Source: Nanobdellota archaeon (lineage in GTDB: Archaea; Nanobdellota; Nanobdellia; Parvarchaeales; Parvarchaeaceae). From it: a stretch of 64,000 nt of DNA. The notes beneath the pieces were generated by a model that was given only the letters and a program-made list of their open reading frames with translations, was not told the DNA's origin and did no database searches. Both the position numbers and the translations under genes were made by a program. The stretch lies in assembly GCA_021811735.1 (NCBI GenBank), contig JAJZNK010000025.1, positions 69,400-133,399 of the forward strand, read 5' to 3'. Shown here piece by piece: positions 6,325 to 27,628 of this stretch. Within the stretch, counting starts at the first letter, position 1. Every line of letters starts with the position of its first letter.

Positions 6325-6517
6325 CTTATTAAAATCAATACTATTCTAACAAAGGTGTCAGATACTCACCATTATACTGCATGTTTATATAAGTGTCTTT
6401 TAATTTTATTTAATTGACATAGTGTGCCTCAGCTATAGGCTTTGCTAACAAAGTAACTTAATTAGCGGACTTTAGGAGCAGAATAAAGACTTTATTAGCA
6501 AACTGCTTCTAGACCTA

Positions 6518-7267
6518 ATGATAAAATATACGCTTTATTTAGATGCAAGTGGTGACTTTGGTTGGAGACCTCCTTATGGCAATAGTCAGTCTAAATTTTA
6601 TGTACTTGCTGGTTTAGCTCTCACACCAGAAGCCGAGTATAAAGCAAAAACAGAACTGCCAAATATAGTGGATAAATATTTTACATCTAAACCTAAGGAA
6701 TTGAAATATACCTACATAATTTCAAATAAAATAGAACCTTTCAAATCTTTAGATGAAAATCAGCGTAAGGCATTGTCTGATGATATCTTTACTCTAATCT
6801 TAGAGATGTCCCCTATATTATTCGCTACGGTTGTTGATAAAGAGAAGTTAAAAGAAAGATATGGAGATAGAGCATATGACCCAAAATATTTATCTCTTAT
6901 TTCTACAATCTCTAGGTTTTCAATGATGTTAAAACGGAATTCAGACACGGGGCAGGTTATAATGGATGATGAACATGCTAGAAAGGATAAAGATTTGCAA
7001 AAAACAATACATAAATTACGTGCGAATGACACAATTATTAGAAGTAGGAATTATAACCCTCCTTCTATAGAACGTTTAGAGAGGATTACTAATAGCATTC
7101 TATTTAGCCATTCGGAAGCTAGTGAAGGAATACAGTTAGCAGATTTTATAGCAAAGGTAGTCTGGATTAAATATACACATGCAAAAATTAACAGATTCAT
7201 GCAAATAGAAAAACTTTTTGACCATAATGAATATAGATATTTCGACCCTTGTTTAATACCAAAATAG
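6518..7267 (+). CDS. DUF3800-family protein
   Basis: N-terminal YLDASGDFG (the DESG-like start typical of DUF3800) and C-terminal EGIQLADFIAKV (QxAD-like). 249 aa. First gene inside the inserted element. Confidence 0.5.
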   Translation: MIKYTLYLDASGDFGWRPPYGNSQSKFYVLAGLALTPEAEYKAKTELPNIVDKYFTSKPKELKYTYIISNKIEPFKSLDENQRKALSDDIFTLILEMSPILFATVVDKEKLKERYGDRAYDPKYLSLISTISRFSMMLKRNSDTGQVIMDDEHARKDKDLQKTIHKLRANDTIIRSRNYNPPSIERLERITNSILFSHSEASEGIQLADFIAKVVWIKYTHAKINRFMQIEKLFDHNEYRYFDPCLIPK

Positions 7268-7327
7268 AATAGAAGGAAAGGTGGTTACCTTTCAGCAACC
7301 AACGAGGTCAAGCAACCTCTCCTTTGC

Positions 7328-7954
7328 CTAATGATTCGAATTCTTCGTTAAATTTAAATCTATCCCTAACTCATAAATTGCACTTATTAGCACCGTAATA
7401 TTATAGGCTATTAGCTTGCACAGCAACTCATTAACCTGCGCTATCTGGTTCTTGCTCTTTAGCATAGCACCGAACTTAGCCTTTATGGCAAAGAATGTGG
7501 TCTCCACATTAGATCTCTTGTGGTAATGCTCTAGAAATACCTCTTGATTAAGCTGGAAATAATGGTACATCTTACGCCATAACCACGCCTTACTACCACT
7601 ACGATAATTTGCAACAGTACTCTTCTTGAAAGGAATGTAAGGTACAGCTCCAACAGCATCAACAGCATTGAAATTGGCGAAAGAATTGTAAGCCTTATCC
7701 GCACTCATATTTTGAATGTCAAAGCCTAGTCTTGCGGTTTCATTGACAAGAGGTATAAACTGCGGACTATCCGCACCATGTTCATCGGTTATTACTGCAG
7801 TAGTTACTATATTGGTATTGTTTCCAGTCAAAGCGTGGCACTTGATCCATTTATGCTGTTTGTTTAATTTGTGCTTTATGTTGCAGTATTCGCTGAACTG
7901 AGTTGTCTCGAATCCCGTAGAATCCACACTAAAACTAGTCTCTACCGATTTCAA
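7328..7954 (-). pseudogene. IS5-family (IS4/IS5 DDE) transposase, N-terminally truncated remnant
   Basis: SVDSTGF (first D of DDE), ADKAY, and the C-terminal HYHKRSNVETTFFAIKAKFG signature of the IS5 family. Only 208 aa; the N-terminal DNA-binding region is missing and no in-frame upstream continuation exists. Confidence 0.6.
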
Positions 7955-8251
7955 ATGCCAAATCTGTGGGACGCAGTTAAAGAAAGAAGGCTGGTCTGCG
8001 GAAATGTCCAGAATAAAAAATGGGGTTATCTATATGCAGAAACTGCGCATATAAAGAATATATCGCATTTCCCCCGATATGATGTGAAGGAGAATATGTT
8101 GTGTTTGTGCGCAAATTGCCATAAAAACTTAGATAATAAAATTTATAAATTATCCGAATCAAGCGGTAGATTCGTATGTGATGACATAATCAGCCATGTA
8201 AATTATAGTCTTGATGTAAAACCACAGCATGAATTGACTTTATTCCCGTAG
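7871..8251 (+). pseudogene. HNH endonuclease fragment
   Basis: HFPRYDVKENMLCLCANCHKNLDN resembles the HNH beta-beta-alpha motif. Short, no convincing N-terminal domain, overlaps the transposase remnant. Confidence 0.3.
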
Positions 8252-8267
8252 TTAGTGGATGCGCCTC

Positions 8268-8615
8268 ATAACTCATGTTCCCATATTCTTACAACAGTCC
8301 AGCCTCCATCTTTCAAGGTTTTGGACACTTTTTCATCACGCACCTTATTTTTCTTTATTTTATTATCCAATAAATGGCATTGCTTTTCGGCCTTTTAAAA
8401 TGCCTAGGACATGCATGCCAGAAGCAACCATCTATGAAAACAGCGATTTTGTGCTTTTTATCAGCAAAGTCAGGATGCCCATATATACCTTCAGGATGGA
8501 AGACGAATCCTAGGCGCTTTAATATGTGCTTAAGGTGCTGTTCCGGAGCAGTGTTTTTGTTTTTTATCCTAGACATAGTATAACTTCTTTGTTTTTTTGT
8601 AAGATTATCAACCAT
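8268..8615 (-). pseudogene. vsr: Very-short-patch-repair endonuclease (Vsr), frameshifted
   Basis: N-terminal ORF (8355-8615) has RSYTMSRIKNKNTAPE...GHPDF...AVFIDGCFWHACPRHF...SNAIYWIIK and then stops. After a 1-nt frame change in an A/T run around 8350-8358, the next frame continues KNKVRDEKVSKTLKDGGWTVVRIWEHEL*, which matches the Vsr C-terminus. No partner Dcm methyltransferase is seen. Confidence 0.65.
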
Positions 8616-8766
8616 TATTTTATAAATAATTGAAGTAATTAATATCTGTTACGATGAAGCTGCAGCCCTGAACGGTTACAAGATATAGTAAGGTAAGGAT
8701 TAAGTAGCTAAATTTATTAGTAAAGCCATCTAGATAATAATATGAAATACCGTATAACCTATATAA

Positions 8767-9300
8767 TTGGATTTGGAAAGTTCGCTAATTGATATGGACA
8801 TATTAACTATATTGGGACAGGTCGGTCCGCTAATTTTAGCAACAGCAACTGCATTCATGGCTTATTTTACATATCTAGTCGTAAAAGAAGGTCGTAAACA
8901 AGATAATGTGCGTTTCTTAGAGAAGAGTCTCGAAGAGTTTTATGAACCATTAATAAATACTTTAAGAAATGGCCCATATTACGGTATAATGGATAAGGAT
9001 TTAAGTGAAGTAATACGCATTTTTATAAGCAAAAGATATTTGTGCAGTGCACAACTTGCGAATATACTGCCTTATACTGTAACTGATGTGTTTAGCGGTA
9101 CTCCTGTTTCAAGCATTGACAAGGGAACTGTATATACTTTTACAAAAGAAGAAGATTTTGATAAATGGAGACATGCTGCTGATAAGATATGGGAAGAGTA
9201 CTTAGAGAAAATAGAAGAATACTCAAAATCAGTGGGAACAACAATAGATATAAGTAAATTTAGTAAGCCAAGTTGGGCATCTCTGAAGCTAAAAAAGTAA
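8767..9300 (+). CDS. Hypothetical protein with an N-terminal TM helix
   Basis: 177-aa ORF; hydrophobic segment ILTILGQVGPLILATATAFMAYFTYLVV; no recognisable domain. Confidence 0.4.
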   Translation: MDLESSLIDMDILTILGQVGPLILATATAFMAYFTYLVVKEGRKQDNVRFLEKSLEEFYEPLINTLRNGPYYGIMDKDLSEVIRIFISKRYLCSAQLANILPYTVTDVFSGTPVSSIDKGTVYTFTKEEDFDKWRHAADKIWEEYLEKIEEYSKSVGTTIDISKFSKPSWASLKLKK

Positions 9301-9357
9301 CAATTTAATTGTTAGCCAACTCACAACATCCTAAAATCAAAAGATACCCAAAGATTA

Positions 9358-9434
9358 GTGACTTTATTAGCAACTCGTCCTACTTTATTAGCAACTCGTC
9401 CTACTTTATTAGCAATGAGACTTTGTTAGCAAAG
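9358..9434. repeat. Tandem direct repeats: 21-bp unit ACTTTATTAGCAACTCGTCCT x2.5, then ACTTTGTTAGCAAAG; core ACTTTRTTAGCAA x4 at 9361, 9382, 9403, 9420
   Basis: Read directly. A related copy GACTTTATTAGCAAACTG lies at 6488-6505 near the left end of the element. The array lies 55-130 bp upstream of the RHH gene start (9489). Confidence 0.6.
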
Positions 9435-9488
9435 CCTCAGCTATAGAAAAGTATTTATACTTATAATTATATATAATTATTAGTAATT

Positions 9489-9710
9489 ATGGAAGAACAA
9501 AAATTTACAACAGTTTCAATACCAAAACCGTTAGCGGACAAGGTAAAAAAGTTTACAGAGAAAACAGGTTTTACTTCTCTTTCCAGTTTCGTTGAATATC
9601 TTCTGAGGGAGATAATATCCGAAAGTAAGGAAGAAAAAATTGGAAAAACAGAAAAAGACGAAAGAGTTCTTGATTTGGAGGACAAATTAAGAAGATTGGG
9701 GTATATGTAG
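9489..9710 (+). CDS. Ribbon-helix-helix (CopG/Arc-like) DNA-binding protein
   Basis: TTVSIPKPLADKVKKFTEKTGFTSLSSFVEYLLREII fits the RHH beta-strand + two-helix pattern. 73 aa; ends ...DKLRRLGYM. Confidence 0.6.
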   Translation: MEEQKFTTVSIPKPLADKVKKFTEKTGFTSLSSFVEYLLREIISESKEEKIGKTEKDERVLDLEDKLRRLGYM

Positions 9711-25285: not shown

Positions 25286-27628
25286 TTACTCTATATTATG
25301 CATTTTTATGAGGTCCTCTCCAAAAAGTTTAAGCCCTTCAGGCACGTCCATGTTTATTTTTTCTCTCAAAGATATACCTTTTTCCTTTTTTATGGCCCAT
25401 ACTCTACTATCAAACTCCATGAGTTTCTCTCCCAAACTAAGCATCTCATCGTCCACACTTGAATTTTCAGGCATTTTTTGGTAATGCACTGGCTCATTTG
25501 AATATAATTCTTTCCATATGGTGTCGGATATAAACGGTGTGATAGGAGCAATCAAAAGTAATGTCCTCTTTAATACATAGTTAAGCGTATAGATTGCTGA
25601 TTCTTTTTCCTCCGCTGAGAACCCCTCACCATATGCCCTTGCCTTGACCAATTCGACATAATGTGGTGCGAAAACGTTCCATACGAATTCTCTTACTTTA
25701 TTAGCAGGGATAAACGGATTAAGTTTTGTATATCCCTCCTTACATTCTTTTATGAGTTTGTTAGTATAAGCTATTATCCACCTATCACTGTAATTCTTTA
25801 TTTCTATTTCTTTGCCGTCAAAAGGAAACTGGCTTATCAGTCTAGCAACATTCCATAACTTAGTCAAGAATTTCGAGCTTCCCTGCAGTCTACTTTCTGA
25901 AAACATAAAATTGCTGCCAGGCATCGCTTCCGACGCGGCCCAGAACCTGAATGCATCAGCCCCATATTTTTCGATGACATCCGTTGGGTCTATACCATTT
26001 CCCTTTGATTTTGACATCTTCTCACCATGTTCATCCAGTCCCATTCCGTCTATCCATGCCGTTTTCCAAGGTAGTTTATCAGTAAGCAGATAATTTCTGA
26101 GTATGCTATAATTGAGCCAGGTTCTTATTATGTCTATACCTTGTGGTCTTAATGTCATAGGATAAGTCTTACTGAAAAATTTCTTGTCATATAAGTATTT
26201 TGTTACATAAAGCGAGGACACACTCGAATCCATCCAAGTATCGAAAGTTCTTTCATCTCCGGTAAATTCTTTTCCGCCACATTTTCTGCACACTGCAGTC
26301 TCCGGAGGTTTTTCTTTCCAAGGCCTGTAATATTTTCCTTCTTCCGGGACAAAAGGTTCACCACAGTTATTACAATACCAAAGTGGTATTTCAGTTCCGT
26401 AATATCTCCTTCTAGAAATTGGCCAGTCATTTGAGACTTTCAGCCAGTTTATGAGTATTTGACGATGTTGTTCTGGGATTATCTCCAACTTTTCTGCCAA
26501 TTCAAGCAACTTGCTCCTTATGTCTATAACTTTTACGTAGTATTCATCTAAAGGTATTATCTCTATAGGAGTCTTGCTTCGGTCACAGATTGGTGTTCTG
26601 TGCTTTATTCTTTCTATCTTTTCTACACAACCGTCATCTTGAAGTAGTTTTATTATCTCTTCCCGTGCTCTGTTTATCTTTAGCCCGTTAAGGCGTTCGC
26701 CAGTATTCTCATTCATTTTACCATTGGTGTTTATGAGAATCGTCTCCTTCAAACCCAACTCCTTTATTATCATTATATCGTTGTAGTCTCCATAACTGCA
26801 TATCATGACTGTGCCACTGCCGAATTCCGCTTTTGCATAGCTATGTTGGATTATTTTTACTTTTTTGCCATAGATGGGAGTTATTGCGGTTTGGCCTGCA
26901 AAGTCCTTAAACCTTTCATCCTCTGGGTTTACTAGAATAGCAGAGCAAGACGCCAAAAGTTCTGGCCTAGTGCTGGCAACTAATATTTTCTTGTCAGAAC
27001 CTTCAATATTGAAATAGAAGTATACTAAGTTTGTATCCATTTCCTTGTATTCTATTTCTGCATCCGCTATTGTGGTTCCACAGTCTATACAGTAGTTACT
27101 TGGCCTAGTTCCTCTAATTATCATCCCTTTATTCCACATTTCTATAAAAGTGCTTTGGGTGAGTGCTCTATAATTTTCGGAATCTGTTCTGTACATACTC
27201 TTAAAATCTCCTGAGTATCCAAACGATCTGAGTATCTCTAGCATTTCATTTTCAAGTTCATCAAGGGACTCCTTACACATTTTAAGGAAGTCCTCCCTTG
27301 GCGTGTCCCTCATCCTTATATTATGTTTTTTTTCAGTGTATCTTTCCACAGGTATTCCATTCCTATCCATTCCGACGGGAAATAGGACTGCCTTTCCTAG
27401 CATTCTTTGGGATCTGCCAATCATATCTATCTTAGAGTATTGTGCAGCTGCCCCTAGGTGCCATGGTCTACCGGAAGTATAAGGGGGTGGTGTATCAATC
27501 GAAAAAATCTCTTTGTCGGAAGATACAGAGAAATCCCATGTAAGGTCGTTTATGCTCACTATAACTTCTTTCTCAAGGTCTCTACTCCAGTTCTTTGCAT
27601 CACCTTTCAGCTTCTCGTGTTCGACCAT
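25286..27628 (-). CDS. valS: Valyl-tRNA synthetase
   Basis: Class I: PPPYTSGRPWHLGAAAQY (HIGH region; the second His is Ala, confirmed in the DNA as CAC CTA GGG GCA GCT). CP1 editing motif ASTRPELLASCSAILVNPEDERFK. KMSKSKGNGIDP...GADAFRFW...TKLWNVARL. 780 aa. Confidence 0.75.
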   Translation of the reverse strand: MVEHEKLKGDAKNWSRDLEKEVIVSINDLTWDFSVSSDKEIFSIDTPPPYTSGRPWHLGAAAQYSKIDMIGRSQRMLGKAVLFPVGMDRNGIPVERYTEKKHNIRMRDTPREDFLKMCKESLDELENEMLEILRSFGYSGDFKSMYRTDSENYRALTQSTFIEMWNKGMIIRGTRPSNYCIDCGTTIADAEIEYKEMDTNLVYFYFNIEGSDKKILVASTRPELLASCSAILVNPEDERFKDFAGQTAITPIYGKKVKIIQHSYAKAEFGSGTVMICSYGDYNDIMIIKELGLKETILINTNGKMNENTGERLNGLKINRAREEIIKLLQDDGCVEKIERIKHRTPICDRSKTPIEIIPLDEYYVKVIDIRSKLLELAEKLEIIPEQHRQILINWLKVSNDWPISRRRYYGTEIPLWYCNNCGEPFVPEEGKYYRPWKEKPPETAVCRKCGGKEFTGDERTFDTWMDSSVSSLYVTKYLYDKKFFSKTYPMTLRPQGIDIIRTWLNYSILRNYLLTDKLPWKTAWIDGMGLDEHGEKMSKSKGNGIDPTDVIEKYGADAFRFWAASEAMPGSNFMFSESRLQGSSKFLTKLWNVARLISQFPFDGKEIEIKNYSDRWIIAYTNKLIKECKEGYTKLNPFIPANKVREFVWNVFAPHYVELVKARAYGEGFSAEEKESAIYTLNYVLKRTLLLIAPITPFISDTIWKELYSNEPVHYQKMPENSSVDDEMLSLGEKLMEFDSRVWAIKKEKGISLREKINMDVPEGLKLFGEDLIKMHNIE

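What the first reader, a model, noticed from the sequence alone, without database searches (positions are those of the whole stretch)
6426..9447. 3-kb cargo element with 13-bp direct repeats and perfect 15-bp terminal inverted repeats
Seen in sequence: GCCTCAGCTATAG occurs at 6426-6438 and again at 9435-9447 in the same orientation. Immediately inside each copy lies CTTTGCTAACAAAGT (6440-6454) and its exact reverse complement ACTTTGTTAGCAAAG (9420-9434). This is the geometry of a transposon with TIRs plus a target-site duplication. It also fits an integrated element whose excised attP would be a lox/FRT-like site of 15-bp inverted arms around a 13-bp core. The interior carries DUF3800, a truncated IS5-family transposase, an HNH fragment, a frameshifted vsr and a 177-aa orphan. 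There is no intact recombinase, so it is probably immobilised. A 13-bp duplication is long for IS5-type elements, which usually give 3-4 bp, so the mobilising enzyme may not be the resident transposase remnant. Subterminal ACTTTRTTAGCAA repeats (6488; 9361, 9382, 9403, 9420) look like recombinase or transposase arm-binding sites.
Basis: seen in the sequence. Interest (0 to 1): 0.7.

Follow-up and report, generated by a model that had tools for sequence, protein, structure and literature searches.

The report
Decayed IS903-like cargo transposon copy
The 3-kb segment is a worn-out copy of a DDE transposon that carries passenger genes; it belongs to a widespread, seemingly undescribed group related to IS903, whose members carry restriction and defence genes and stack up side by side at one spot in this archaeon.

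Summary
The repeats are real. Comparison with relatives changes the geometry: 17-bp terminal inverted repeats GGCTTTGCTAACAAAGT (6438-6454 / 9420-9436) and a 9-bp target duplication TCAGCTATA (6429-6437 / 9437-9445). The other 4 bp of the '13-bp repeat' are flanking bases that happen to match the transposon tips.

The host is an uncultured Thermoplasmatales archaeon. In other strains of the same species up to three different elements sit in tandem at this 9-mer. Each one carries a diverged full-length homologue (385-409 aa) of the transposase that survives here only as its C-terminal half.

Related elements were found in archaeal and bacterial genomes and metagenomes. In 22 of 29 candidate end pairs the flanks are perfect 9-bp duplications, each a different sequence. 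The ends start GGCTTTG as in IS903, which also duplicates 9 bp. Each end has three 13-bp sites at fixed spacing, and the cargo is mostly restriction-modification genes.

So this is a DDE transposon, not a lox/att-type integrated element, and the resident remnant belongs to the mobilising enzyme family. The copy is defective: truncated transposase, frameshifted vsr, broken HNH gene. Why elements pile up at one site is unresolved.

The parts
6429..6437 (.). Left copy of the 9-bp target-site duplication, TCAGCTATA
   Evidence: Read directly from the sequence. The 9-bp length is set by 22 relatives with perfect 9-bp duplications next to GGCTTTG.../...CAAAGCC ends.
6438..6454 (+). Terminal inverted repeat at the transposase-proximal end, GGCTTTGCTAACAAAGT; it contains the terminal 13-bp site (6442-6454)
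   Evidence: It has the same GGCTTTG tip as all sister elements and as an IS903-type element in plasmid pLVPK.
6469..6481 (+). Degenerate subterminal 13-bp site, ACTTTAGGAGCAG, 31 nt from the tip
   Evidence: Read from the sequence. It lies at exactly the offset (31) where relatives have their second site.
6489..6501 (+). Subterminal 13-bp site, ACTTTATTAGCAA, 51 nt from the tip and inverted relative to the terminal site
   Evidence: Offset 51 is conserved across the family.
6518..7267 (+). Passenger gene: DUF3800 protein, 249 aa, apparently intact
   Evidence: Pfam PF12686, E 1.7e-16. One more DUF3800 gene was found among 19 related elements.
7328..7954 (-). Transposase remnant: the C-terminal ~200 aa of a DDE_Tnp_1 enzyme. 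The D, D, E residues and the YREK motif are present; the N-terminal ~200 aa, including the Zn finger, are missing.
   Evidence: Pfam PF01609, E 2.7e-20. 37-55% identity to the C-terminal halves of full-length transposases in sister elements. Alignment. No N-terminal piece anywhere in the window.
7960..8251 (+). HNH endonuclease fragment, split over two reading frames (approximate start)
   Evidence: Pfam HNH_2, E 1.2e-4. Three-frame translation.
8255..8615 (-). Frameshifted vsr (very-short-patch repair endonuclease) pseudogene
   Evidence: Pfam PF03852, E 1.1e-19, for 8355-8615. The C-terminal motif GWTVVRIWEHEL lies in another frame.
8767..9300 (+). Passenger gene: AF_0924-family protein, 177 aa, with a hydrophobic N-terminus
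   Evidence: Pfam PF22185, E 7.3e-15.
9361..9415 (+). Three direct subterminal 13-bp sites (9361, 9382, 9403) in a 21-bp tandem array. One unit is an extra duplication specific to some strains.
   Evidence: Other strains of the species have one unit fewer. Relatives have terminal plus two direct sites at +5, +23, +43.
9420..9436 (+). Terminal inverted repeat at the distal end, ACTTTGTTAGCAAAGCC
9437..9445 (.). Right copy of the 9-bp target-site duplication, TCAGCTATA. It sits directly upstream of the conserved 43-bp stretch (inferred promoter) before the RHH gene (ATG at 9489).

Best explanation
The element spans window 6438-9436 (2999 bp). It is a defective, non-autonomous member of a family of passenger-carrying DDE transposons whose nearest named relatives are the IS903 group of the IS5 family.

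How the family works, by analogy with IS903-type DDE enzymes:
- A ~400-aa transposase (N-terminal Zn finger or SWIM domain plus a DDE_Tnp_1 catalytic domain) binds 13-bp sites, three at each end. The sequence of these sites is element-specific. The first 7 bp of the tips, GGCTTTG, are shared by the whole family.
- The enzyme cuts at the tips and joins them to target DNA cut with a 9-bp stagger. Repair of the gaps produces the 9-bp duplication, here TCAGCTATA.

The cargo lies between the ends. In the family it is mostly restriction-modification and other defence genes. Here it is DUF3800, an AF_0924-family gene, and the wreck of an HNH/vsr module.

This copy has lost the N-terminal, DNA-binding half of its transposase. 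It is found in every sampled genome that has the identical TrpRS, so it cannot move by itself.

The site is a hot spot. It lies just upstream of the conserved 43-bp stretch (inferred promoter) of the RHH/PAPS-reductase genes. In other strains, further intact elements of the family are inserted at the 9-mer copy on the promoter side of element A, forming tandem arrays.

Shown: the ends, the 9-bp duplication, the family relationship, the arrays and the decay. Inferred: binding of the transposase to the 13-bp sites, the chemistry, and the reason for same-site stacking.
For: 1. The ends are real and non-random.

2. Same-species contigs from independent assemblies show arrays at this site. They read TrpRS-T-A-T-(C...), T-A-T-B'-T-(D...) and T-A-T-B-T, where T = TCAGCTATA. 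Every internal junction reads CAAAGCC-TCAGCTATA-GGCTTTG.

3. All five elements (A, B, B', C, D) carry homologues of one transposase, at 36-64% identity between the different elements; the two fetched copies of B are identical. No IS-sized inverted-repeat pair encloses the transposase genes on their own.

4. The catalytic domain is typical: DDE_Tnp_1 with conserved D, D, E and Y-2-R-3-E-6-K. The best NCBIfam model is NF033579. That is the model an IS903-type transposase hits at 350 bits. BLASTP of the remnant against the IS903-type enzyme gives E 2e-12.

5. The IS903-type element in pLVPK ends GGCTTTGTTGAATAAATC.../...CAAAGCC. IS903B makes 9-bp direct repeats (PMC9769513).

The metagenome scan confirmed 61 relatives. 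Among 29 candidate end pairs with GGCTTTG.../...CAAAGCC and matching inverted repeats, 22 have perfect 9-bp duplications, all of different sequence. Element lengths are 1.8-7.6 kb for the 22 and up to 8.4 kb among all 29 pairs.

7. The end architecture is conserved: sites at +5, +23, +43 at one end, and a terminal site plus sites at 31 and 51 at the other. The window element matches it.

8. The cargo of 19 elements is dominated by methyltransferases and restriction endonucleases. Element C carries IetA/IetS.

9. Three sister species at 79% TrpRS identity keep the flanking gene order without any transposon. One of them gives a clean empty site.
Against: - No empty-site allele of this exact species was found. 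Element A is present in every contig that carries the identical TrpRS, so its insertion is inferred from the duplication, the family pattern and the sister species, not from a presence/absence pair.
- The transposases score below the curated IS5 cut-off (110-120 bits against 140). Identity to the IS903-type enzyme is only 23-27%.
- ISfinder could not be consulted.
- No biochemical data exist for this group.
- Seven of the 29 candidate end pairs lack a perfect duplication. Six have mismatched flanks; the seventh spans its whole contig, so no flanks were available.
- Repeated use of one identical 9-mer, and the same orientation of all five elements here, is unusual for a transposase with loose target choice and is not explained mechanistically.
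Confidence: 0.88

Rival explanations
1. Integrated element moved by a tyrosine or serine site-specific recombinase supplied in trans. The joined ends would form a lox/FRT-like site: inverted arms around an asymmetric core within GCCTCAGCTATAG. Tandem arrays would arise by repeated integration into the regenerated att site.
For: - The same sequence is reused by at least five elements at this locus, and all five have the same orientation.
- Internal junctions are palindromic around an asymmetric centre, CAAAGCC-TCAGCTATA-GGCTTTG.
- No element-encoded function other than the DDE enzyme is needed if a host recombinase acted.
Against: - No integrase or resolvase domain turned up in the family searches run on these elements: Pfam on the ORFs of A and on the called ORFs of B, B' and C, with NCBIfam and PADLOC on subsets; of D only one small ORF was scanned.
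- Relatives with the same tips sit at 22 different 9-mers, each exactly duplicated. That is the signature of staggered-cut transposition, not of an att core.
- Element B in a sister-species background abuts a different 9-mer, ATAGTAAAG.
- The chromosomal site has no symmetric arms.
Confidence: 0.04
2. A sub-question, given that these are transposons: how do they come to stack at one 9-mer?
(a) A positional hot spot set by the DNA or by bound proteins just upstream of the inferred RHH promoter, so that each newcomer enters the promoter-side copy of T.
(b) Targeting directed by the resident end.
(c) Excised circles carrying a T spacer integrate by homologous or conservative recombination at resident junctions.
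For: For (a):
- Element B in the sister-species background and the elements here sit at exactly the same distance, with the 9-mer at -52 to -44 from the RHH ATG, although the two 9-mers differ.
- Homology between species starts exactly at this boundary.
- The leftmost element, A, is the decayed one and is present in all same-species contigs. Those to its right are intact and vary between strains.

For (b):
- Abutted ends separated by one TSD-length spacer occur in four unrelated genomes: L064, L098, L104 and L135.

For (c):
- All five elements here have the same orientation.
Against: Against (a): selection against insertions that disrupt promoters in compact genomes could place survivors at the same boundary. 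The test of ORF distances in relatives is only suggestive.

Against (b): no preference for tip-like flanks is seen in single insertions.

Against (c): only 23 bp are shared between junctions, and arrays in other genomes include oppositely oriented elements (L102, L104).
Confidence: 0.5
3. Casposon-like or other self-synthesising element, or a composite transposon made of two insertion sequences.
For: Terminal inverted repeats with a longish apparent duplication (13 bp) and tandem same-site arrays recall casposons. This is a resemblance from memory only.
Against: - No Cas1 or PolB matches in the family scans of elements A, B, B' and C; of D only one small ORF was scanned.
- The real duplication is 9 bp.
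- There is only one transposase gene per element and no internal IS-sized repeats.
Confidence: 0.01

Closest known systems
IS903 / IS903B (IS5 family, IS903 group)
   Same: - DDE_Tnp_1 catalytic domain with the YREK signature.
- Best match to the same NCBIfam model, NF033579.
- Inverted repeats of about 17-18 bp that begin GGCTTTG. Element C's end GGCTTTGTTTAATAAGTG matches IS903's GGCTTTGTTGAATAAATC at 15 of 18 positions.
- 9-bp target duplication (PMC9769513).
   Different: - Here the elements are 1.8-8.4 kb and carry passenger genes, against about 1.06 kb and one gene for IS903.
- The transposase is about 400 aa with an extra N-terminal Zn-finger or SWIM region, against about 307-322 aa.
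- There are three binding-site repeats per end instead of one inverted repeat.
- Protein identity is only 23-27%, and scores fall below the curated family cut-off.
- Hosts are mostly archaea and environmental bacteria.
Insertion sequences with passenger genes ('transporter IS', tIS) and unit transposons
   Same: One transposase gene and the cargo lie inside a single pair of inverted repeats, flanked by a short duplication.
   Different: - The cargo here is defence and restriction-modification genes rather than resistance genes.
- The family is abundant in archaea. A 2019 survey stated that passenger-carrying DNA transposons had not been detected in archaea (PMC6563490).
- Whether ISfinder already lists members could not be checked.
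Transposon-like restriction-modification units (Furuta et al. 2010, PMC2853133)
   Same: Restriction-modification genes flanked by inverted repeats and a short target duplication, which suggests that these systems move as transposon cargo.
   Different: Those cases were individual loci, for example 8-bp duplications in Xanthomonas oryzae. No shared transposase family or conserved end architecture was reported for them.
Mu, Tn7 and Tn402-type transposon ends
   Same: Several transposase-binding repeats at each end, arranged asymmetrically between the two ends.
   Different: Those use an unrelated class of transposase (RNase H-fold, rve-type) and make 5-bp duplications. Here there are no accessory ATPase or target-selector genes.
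Tandem same-site arrays of casposons, tycheposons and integron cassettes
   Same: Several different cargo units lie head to tail at one chromosomal spot, separated by the same short repeat, and together build a small defence island.
   Different: Those use Cas1, tyrosine recombinases or IntI with specific att or attC sites. Here each unit has its own DDE transposase and inverted repeats, and the family otherwise inserts at varied 9-mers.

Membership tests
IS5 family, IS903 group | DDE_Tnp_1 catalytic domain with conserved D, D, E and the Y-2-R-3-E-6-K motif | tested here: met
   PF01609, E 2.7e-20 for the remnant and 1e-20 to 1.7e-23 for full-length sister copies. Invariant D217, D293, E356, Y349, R352 and K363 in an alignment that includes an IS903-type enzyme.
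IS5 family, IS903 group | Score above the curated cut-off of the NCBIfam IS5 model that recognises IS903-type enzymes (NF033579, 140 bits) | tested here: not met
   It is the best-scoring model, but at 113.7 bits for the remnant and 109.8-120.4 bits for full-length sisters. The IS903-type enzyme scores 350 bits.
IS5 family, IS903 group | Terminal inverted repeats of about 18 bp beginning GGC(TTTG) | tested here: met
   17-bp perfect inverted repeat GGCTTTGCTAACAAAGT. The IS903-type ends in pLVPK read GGCTTTGTTGAATAAATC.
IS5 family, IS903 group | 9-bp target-site duplication | tested here: met
   TCAGCTATA on both sides. 22 of 29 related end pairs have perfect 9-bp duplications. IS903B makes 9-bp direct repeats (PMC9769513).
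IS5 family, IS903 group | Compact insertion sequence of about 1 kb, a single gene, one binding site per end | tested here: not met
   Elements are 1.8-8.4 kb with cargo. There are three 13-bp sites per end. The transposase is about 400 aa with an N-terminal Zn finger or SWIM domain.
Passenger-carrying transposon (tIS / unit transposon), defective copy | Transposase gene and unrelated genes inside one pair of inverted repeats with a target duplication; the transposase is inactivated | tested here: met
   Gene content. The remnant lacks about 200 N-terminal residues, and no N-terminal piece exists in the window.
Integrative element using a tyrosine or serine recombinase | An integrase gene, or a demonstrable trans-acting one, and an identical att core at independent integrations | tested here: not met
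   No recombinase domains in the ORFs scanned from A, B, B' and C; of D only one small ORF was scanned. The flanking repeats of relatives are 22 different 9-mers. A trans-acting host recombinase cannot be formally excluded.
Casposon | Cas1 casposase plus family B polymerase; 14-15-bp duplication | tested here: not met
   No such domains in elements A, B, B' and C. The duplication is 9 bp.
Integron cassette array | IntI integrase next to attI; cassettes bounded by attC sites | tested here: not met
   The junctions are inverted repeat - duplication - inverted repeat. The flanking genes are TrpRS and an RHH/PAPS-reductase pair.

The most novel reading that the evidence does not exclude
The element is one worn-out member of a large, so far unnamed group of transposons that carry defence genes. 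The group's features are IS903-like tips, a 9-bp duplication, three binding sites per end, and a DDE enzyme with a Zn finger or SWIM domain. It spans archaea (Thermoplasmatales, Micrarchaeota and other DPANN lineages, Methanoperedens) and bacteria (Dehalococcoidia, Acidobacteriota). Its members insert in a targeted way, at a fixed position next to a promoter or next to a resident end. They thereby build small defence islands by adding new units one after another at a single 9-mer.
Probability: 0.35. Interest if true: 0.65.

Novelty: new variant of a known kind. Interest (0 to 1): 0.45.

Why it matters
The 3-kb copy by itself is an ordinary dead transposon. What it led to is more useful.

It points to a coherent family of DDE transposons shared by archaea and bacteria. 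The family has a defined end architecture and mainly ferries restriction-modification and other defence systems such as IetAS.

In this family, tandem arrays sharing one target duplication recur in unrelated genomes. That offers a concrete route by which defence islands could be assembled, and a possible vehicle for moving defence genes between the two domains.

A 2019 review stated that passenger-carrying DNA transposons had not been detected in archaea (PMC6563490).

The same-position insertion in two species, at different 9-mers, gives a directly testable case of positional target choice by an IS5-type enzyme.

Tried and rejected
- Viral-contig scans. The 18-mer end gave two hits inside coding regions, which look like chance matches. 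The two-site pattern gave none.
- Plasmid BLASTN of the whole element: no match.
- tRNA-gene integration: no tRNA gene lies near the element.
- Xer/dif-type or integron-like cassette array. I considered this after finding the palindromic junctions CAAAGCCTCAGCTATAGGCTTTG. I rejected it once every element proved to carry the same transposase family and relatives showed varied 9-bp duplications.
- A separate small IS nested inside each cassette: no IS-sized inverted-repeat pair around the transposase genes.
- Target consensus GCC-N9-G: not seen in 16 other insertions.
- Closer or intact copies of element A's own transposase: the best metagenome relatives are only about 68% identical.
- An exact empty site in the same species: not found among the 22-23 contigs read in each look-up.
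- Literature searches for a named family with these features: nothing found in the held library.
- The promoter-distance test in relatives is only suggestive.
- PADLOC and NCBIfam gave no function for DUF3800 or the AF_0924-family protein.
Full report
**1. The observation**

- The 13-mer GCCTCAGCTATAG occurs exactly twice in the window, at 6426-6438 and 9434-9446.
The perfect inverted repeat actually runs 18 nt (6437-6454 / 9420-9437) and overlaps the direct repeat.
- ACTTTRTTAGCAA occurs at 6442(-), 6489, 9361, 9382, 9403 and 9420. That is 7 matches at up to 1 mismatch against 0.42 expected, and 0 of 100 shuffles reached 7.
- 9361-9415 is a perfect 21-bp tandem array.
- A perfect inverted repeat of 15 nt or more arises in 36 of 2000 shuffles of the region. 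An 18-nt one with an adjoining exact direct repeat is not a chance product.
- The 177-aa protein is not an orphan. It belongs to Pfam AF_0924.

**2. Host and population context**

- The flanking genes are TrpRS on the left and a small RHH protein plus a PAPS-reductase-like protein on the right.
- TrpRS homologues place the organism among uncultured Thermoplasmatales. The window comes from a 108-kb JGI metagenome contig.
- Look-ups of the identical TrpRS and PAPS-reductase proteins returned contigs of the same species from many independent assemblies.
- All of them carry the 3-kb element, here called A, with the same truncated transposase. They differ to its right.
  - Some read T-A-T-promoter, as the window does (T = TCAGCTATA).
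  - One type has a second, unrelated element C directly after A.
  - Another has B' and then D.
  - One MAG has B.
- Every internal junction reads ...CAAAGCC TCAGCTATA GGCTTTG....
- The assemblies used k = 141 and the junctions share only 23 bp, so these arrays cannot be assembly chimeras (inference).
- The 21-bp array has two or three units in different strains.

**3. The turning point**

The palindromic junctions first suggested a lox-like site and a cassette array. An all-against-all comparison of the ORFs changed that view.

- A, B, B', C and D each carry a homologue of one protein, at 36-64% identity between the different elements. It is 385-409 aa long and consists of an N-terminal Zn finger or SWIM domain plus DDE_Tnp_1.
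- A retains only the last ~200 residues. These include the D, D, E residues and the Y-2-R-3-E-6-K signature. No N-terminal piece exists anywhere in the window.
- No IS-sized inverted-repeat pair surrounds these genes. The transposase therefore belongs to the whole cargo-bearing unit.
- All ends begin GGCTTTG and then differ from element to element:
  - A: GGCTTTGCTAACAAAGT
  - B: GGCTTTGCACATAAATTAA
  - C: GGCTTTGTTTAATAAGTG
  - D: GGCTTTGTTTATAAAGTAG

**4. Relation to IS903, and the true geometry**

- From memory, IS903 ends in GGCTTTGTTGAATAAATC and duplicates 9 bp. I tested both points.
  - That 32-mer retrieves thousands of enterobacterial plasmids.
  - In pLVPK it bounds a 1056-bp element encoding an 'IS5 family transposase'. 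The other end reads ...ATTTATTCAACAAAGCC.
  - IS903B is reported as an IS5-family element with 9-bp direct repeats (PMC9769513).
- The IS903-type enzyme hits NCBIfam NF033579 at 350 bits. The archaeal enzymes have the same best model, but at 110-120 bits, below the cut-off of 140.
- BLASTP against the IS903-type enzyme gives 23-27% identity, with E values of 5e-10 and 2e-12.
- Reading the window with these rules gives:
  - inverted repeats at 6438-6454 and 9420-9436 (17 bp);
  - duplication TCAGCTATA at 6429-6437 and 9437-9445;
  - element length 2999 bp.
- The remaining 4 bp of the '13-bp repeat' are GCC on the left and G on the right. They are chromosomal bases that happen to match the transposon tips.

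**5. Test on independent insertions**

- A profile of the archaeal transposases was used to scan one genome per species. The relatives occur in Micrarchaeota and other DPANN lineages, Thermoplasmata, Methanoperedens, Dehalococcoidia, Acidobacteriota and others.
- A metagenome scan with the remnant found 61 relatives. The closest is about 68% identical.
- A protein search scored 5117 clusters at E <= 1e-20. Where they are named at all, the name is just 'transposase'.
- In the fetched loci I searched for GGCTTTG...CAAAGCC pairs with matching inverted repeats. Of 29 candidates, 22 are flanked by perfect 9-bp direct repeats, every one a different sequence. Element lengths are 1.8-7.6 kb for the 22 and up to 8.4 kb among all 29 pairs.
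- The flanks show no GCC...G preference.
- This fixes the duplication at 9 bp. It also shows a loosely specific, staggered-cut transposition mechanism rather than att-site recombination.

**6. End architecture**

- In about 20 of these elements the 13-bp inner part of the inverted repeat recurs at fixed offsets.
  - At the end far from the transposase gene there are three direct copies, at +5, +23 and +43.
  - At the end next to the 3' end of the transposase gene there is the terminal copy plus two copies of opposite orientation, at 31 and 51 from the tip.
- The window element fits this layout.
  - Its right end has sites at 9420, 9403 and 9382. The fourth site at 9361 comes from the strain-specific 21-bp duplication.
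  - Its left end has 6442-6454, a degenerate site at 6469-6481 (offset 31) and 6489-6501 (offset 51).
- The position of these sites is conserved while their sequence is element-specific. This is good indirect evidence that they are the binding sites of each element's own transposase.
- This layout is unlike IS903, which has a single inverted repeat per end.

**7. Cargo**

- I scanned 89 ORFs from 19 elements against Pfam. Apart from the transposases they are mainly:
  - DNA methyltransferases (N6_N4, C5, D12, N6, type I S subunits);
  - restriction endonucleases (MvaI/BcnI, BglI, MunI, Eco47II, SfiI);
  - two Vsr genes and one more DUF3800.
- Element C carries the IetA/IetS defence pair. B' carries a Lamassu LmuB fragment.
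- The broken HNH and vsr genes of element A therefore look like the remains of a restriction-modification-type cargo.
- DUF3800 and the AF_0924-family gene are intact. Their function is unknown.

**8. Is it an insertion?**

- Sister species with 79% TrpRS identity keep TrpRS-...-RHH-PAPS reductase without any transposon. Two of them have other small genes in the gap.
- Their homology to the window resumes exactly at the base after the right-hand duplication.
- A third sister species gives a clean empty site: TrpRS stop, 44 bp including ATAGTAAAG, then the conserved 43-bp stretch and the RHH ATG.
- Contig L016 has the same left flank, but there ATAGTAAAG is followed directly by the end of element B.
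- An empty allele of the window species itself was not found.

**9. The stacking problem**

- At this locus at least five elements use the same 9-mer, and all have the transposase on the minus strand.
- Abutted ends separated by one duplication-length spacer also occur in unrelated genomes: L064, L098, L104 and L135. Sometimes the 9-mer is repeated two to four times between the ends. Tandem accumulation is therefore a trait of the family.
- B in the sister background and the elements here lie at exactly the same distance from the RHH start, with the 9-mer at -52 to -44, although the 9-mers differ.
- The decayed element A, present in all same-species contigs, is the one furthest from the inferred promoter. 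The intact, polymorphic elements lie between it and the promoter.
- My preferred reading is a positional hot spot immediately upstream of the BRE/TATA-like gaaaagTATTTATA. Newcomers would enter the promoter-side copy of the 9-mer and push older units away. This is inference.
- Alternatives remain open: targeting by resident ends, integration of excised circles by recombination, or simple survival of insertions that spare the promoter. A crude ORF-distance test in relatives was only suggestive.

**10. Comparison with known systems, and novelty**

- The mechanism class is known: a DDE transposon with inverted repeats and a 9-bp duplication, nearest to the IS903 group.
- Membership in that group is only partial. 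The catalytic motifs, tips and duplication length are met. The curated score cut-off, the compact single-gene structure and the single binding site per end are not.
- Passenger-carrying insertion sequences and transposon-like restriction-modification units have been described in general terms (PMC2853133).
- A 2019 survey stated that passenger-carrying DNA transposons had not been seen in archaea (PMC6563490).
- I found no description of this family in the held literature. ISfinder could not be searched.
- I rate the finding a new variant of a known kind. The specific 3-kb copy is a dead element of modest interest. The family and its tandem arrays are worth a follow-up.

Noticed in passing
L174 2030-2110; L016 230-280; window 9437-9488: A sister species has an empty TrpRS-RHH spacer. 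In contig L016, element B sits after the 9-mer ATAGTAAAG. That is exactly the same distance from the RHH start codon (-52 to -44) as TCAGCTATA in the window species, although the 9-mers differ. The 43 bp between the 9-mer and the ATG are conserved in four species.
   Followed up: partly
L098 7368-7413 and 11759-11789; L104 10421-10453: Between abutted transposon ends the 9-bp duplication is itself repeated: GGGACTTGG two to four times, GTCAGAACG twice. These could be excision footprints or slippage.
   Followed up: no
L064 10895-11025: A 131-bp mini-element consisting only of two family-type ends sits inside a tandem array in a Binatia bacterium, like a MITE derivative of the family.
   Followed up: no
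window 9361-9415 versus L004 10165-10198: The 21-bp subterminal repeat varies in copy number between strains of the same species. Counting the terminal site, there are three or four 13-bp sites. Three is the layout seen across the family.
   Followed up: yes
L024 14229-21128; L025 14247-18135; L016 262-7866: The sister elements at this site carry defence cargo. C has a Dam-type methylase plus IetA/IetS. B' has an N4/N6 methylase, an MvaI/BcnI endonuclease and a LmuB C-terminal fragment. B has two methylases, MvaI/BcnI, an SDH-type protease and three proteins with no family match.
   Followed up: partly
L016 283-1440 versus L026 14271-15131: Element B's transposase is 100% identical in two contigs whose TrpRS flanks differ: one has the window species' TrpRS, the other a sister-species-like TrpRS 3' end. 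This means recent transfer between species, recombination, or a chimeric contig joined through B.
   Followed up: partly
L024 414-662 (-); L025 343-1902 (both about 8-10 kb upstream of TrpRS, outside the window): There is a second variable spot. One strain has a fragment 75% identical to element C's transposase there. Another has a Peptidase_M78 + DUF4411 gene pair in place of the sequence seen in other strains.
   Followed up: no
window 25695-25707: A lone near-match to the 13-bp site (ACTTTATTAGCAG, one mismatch), far from the element. No transposase homology lies nearby, so it is probably chance.
   Followed up: partly
22 related loci: In 7 of about 17 relatives with enough flank, an outward-reading ORF starts 33-46 bp beyond the duplication at the distal end (43 bp in the window). 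This hints at insertion just upstream of promoters, or at survival of such insertions.
   Followed up: partly
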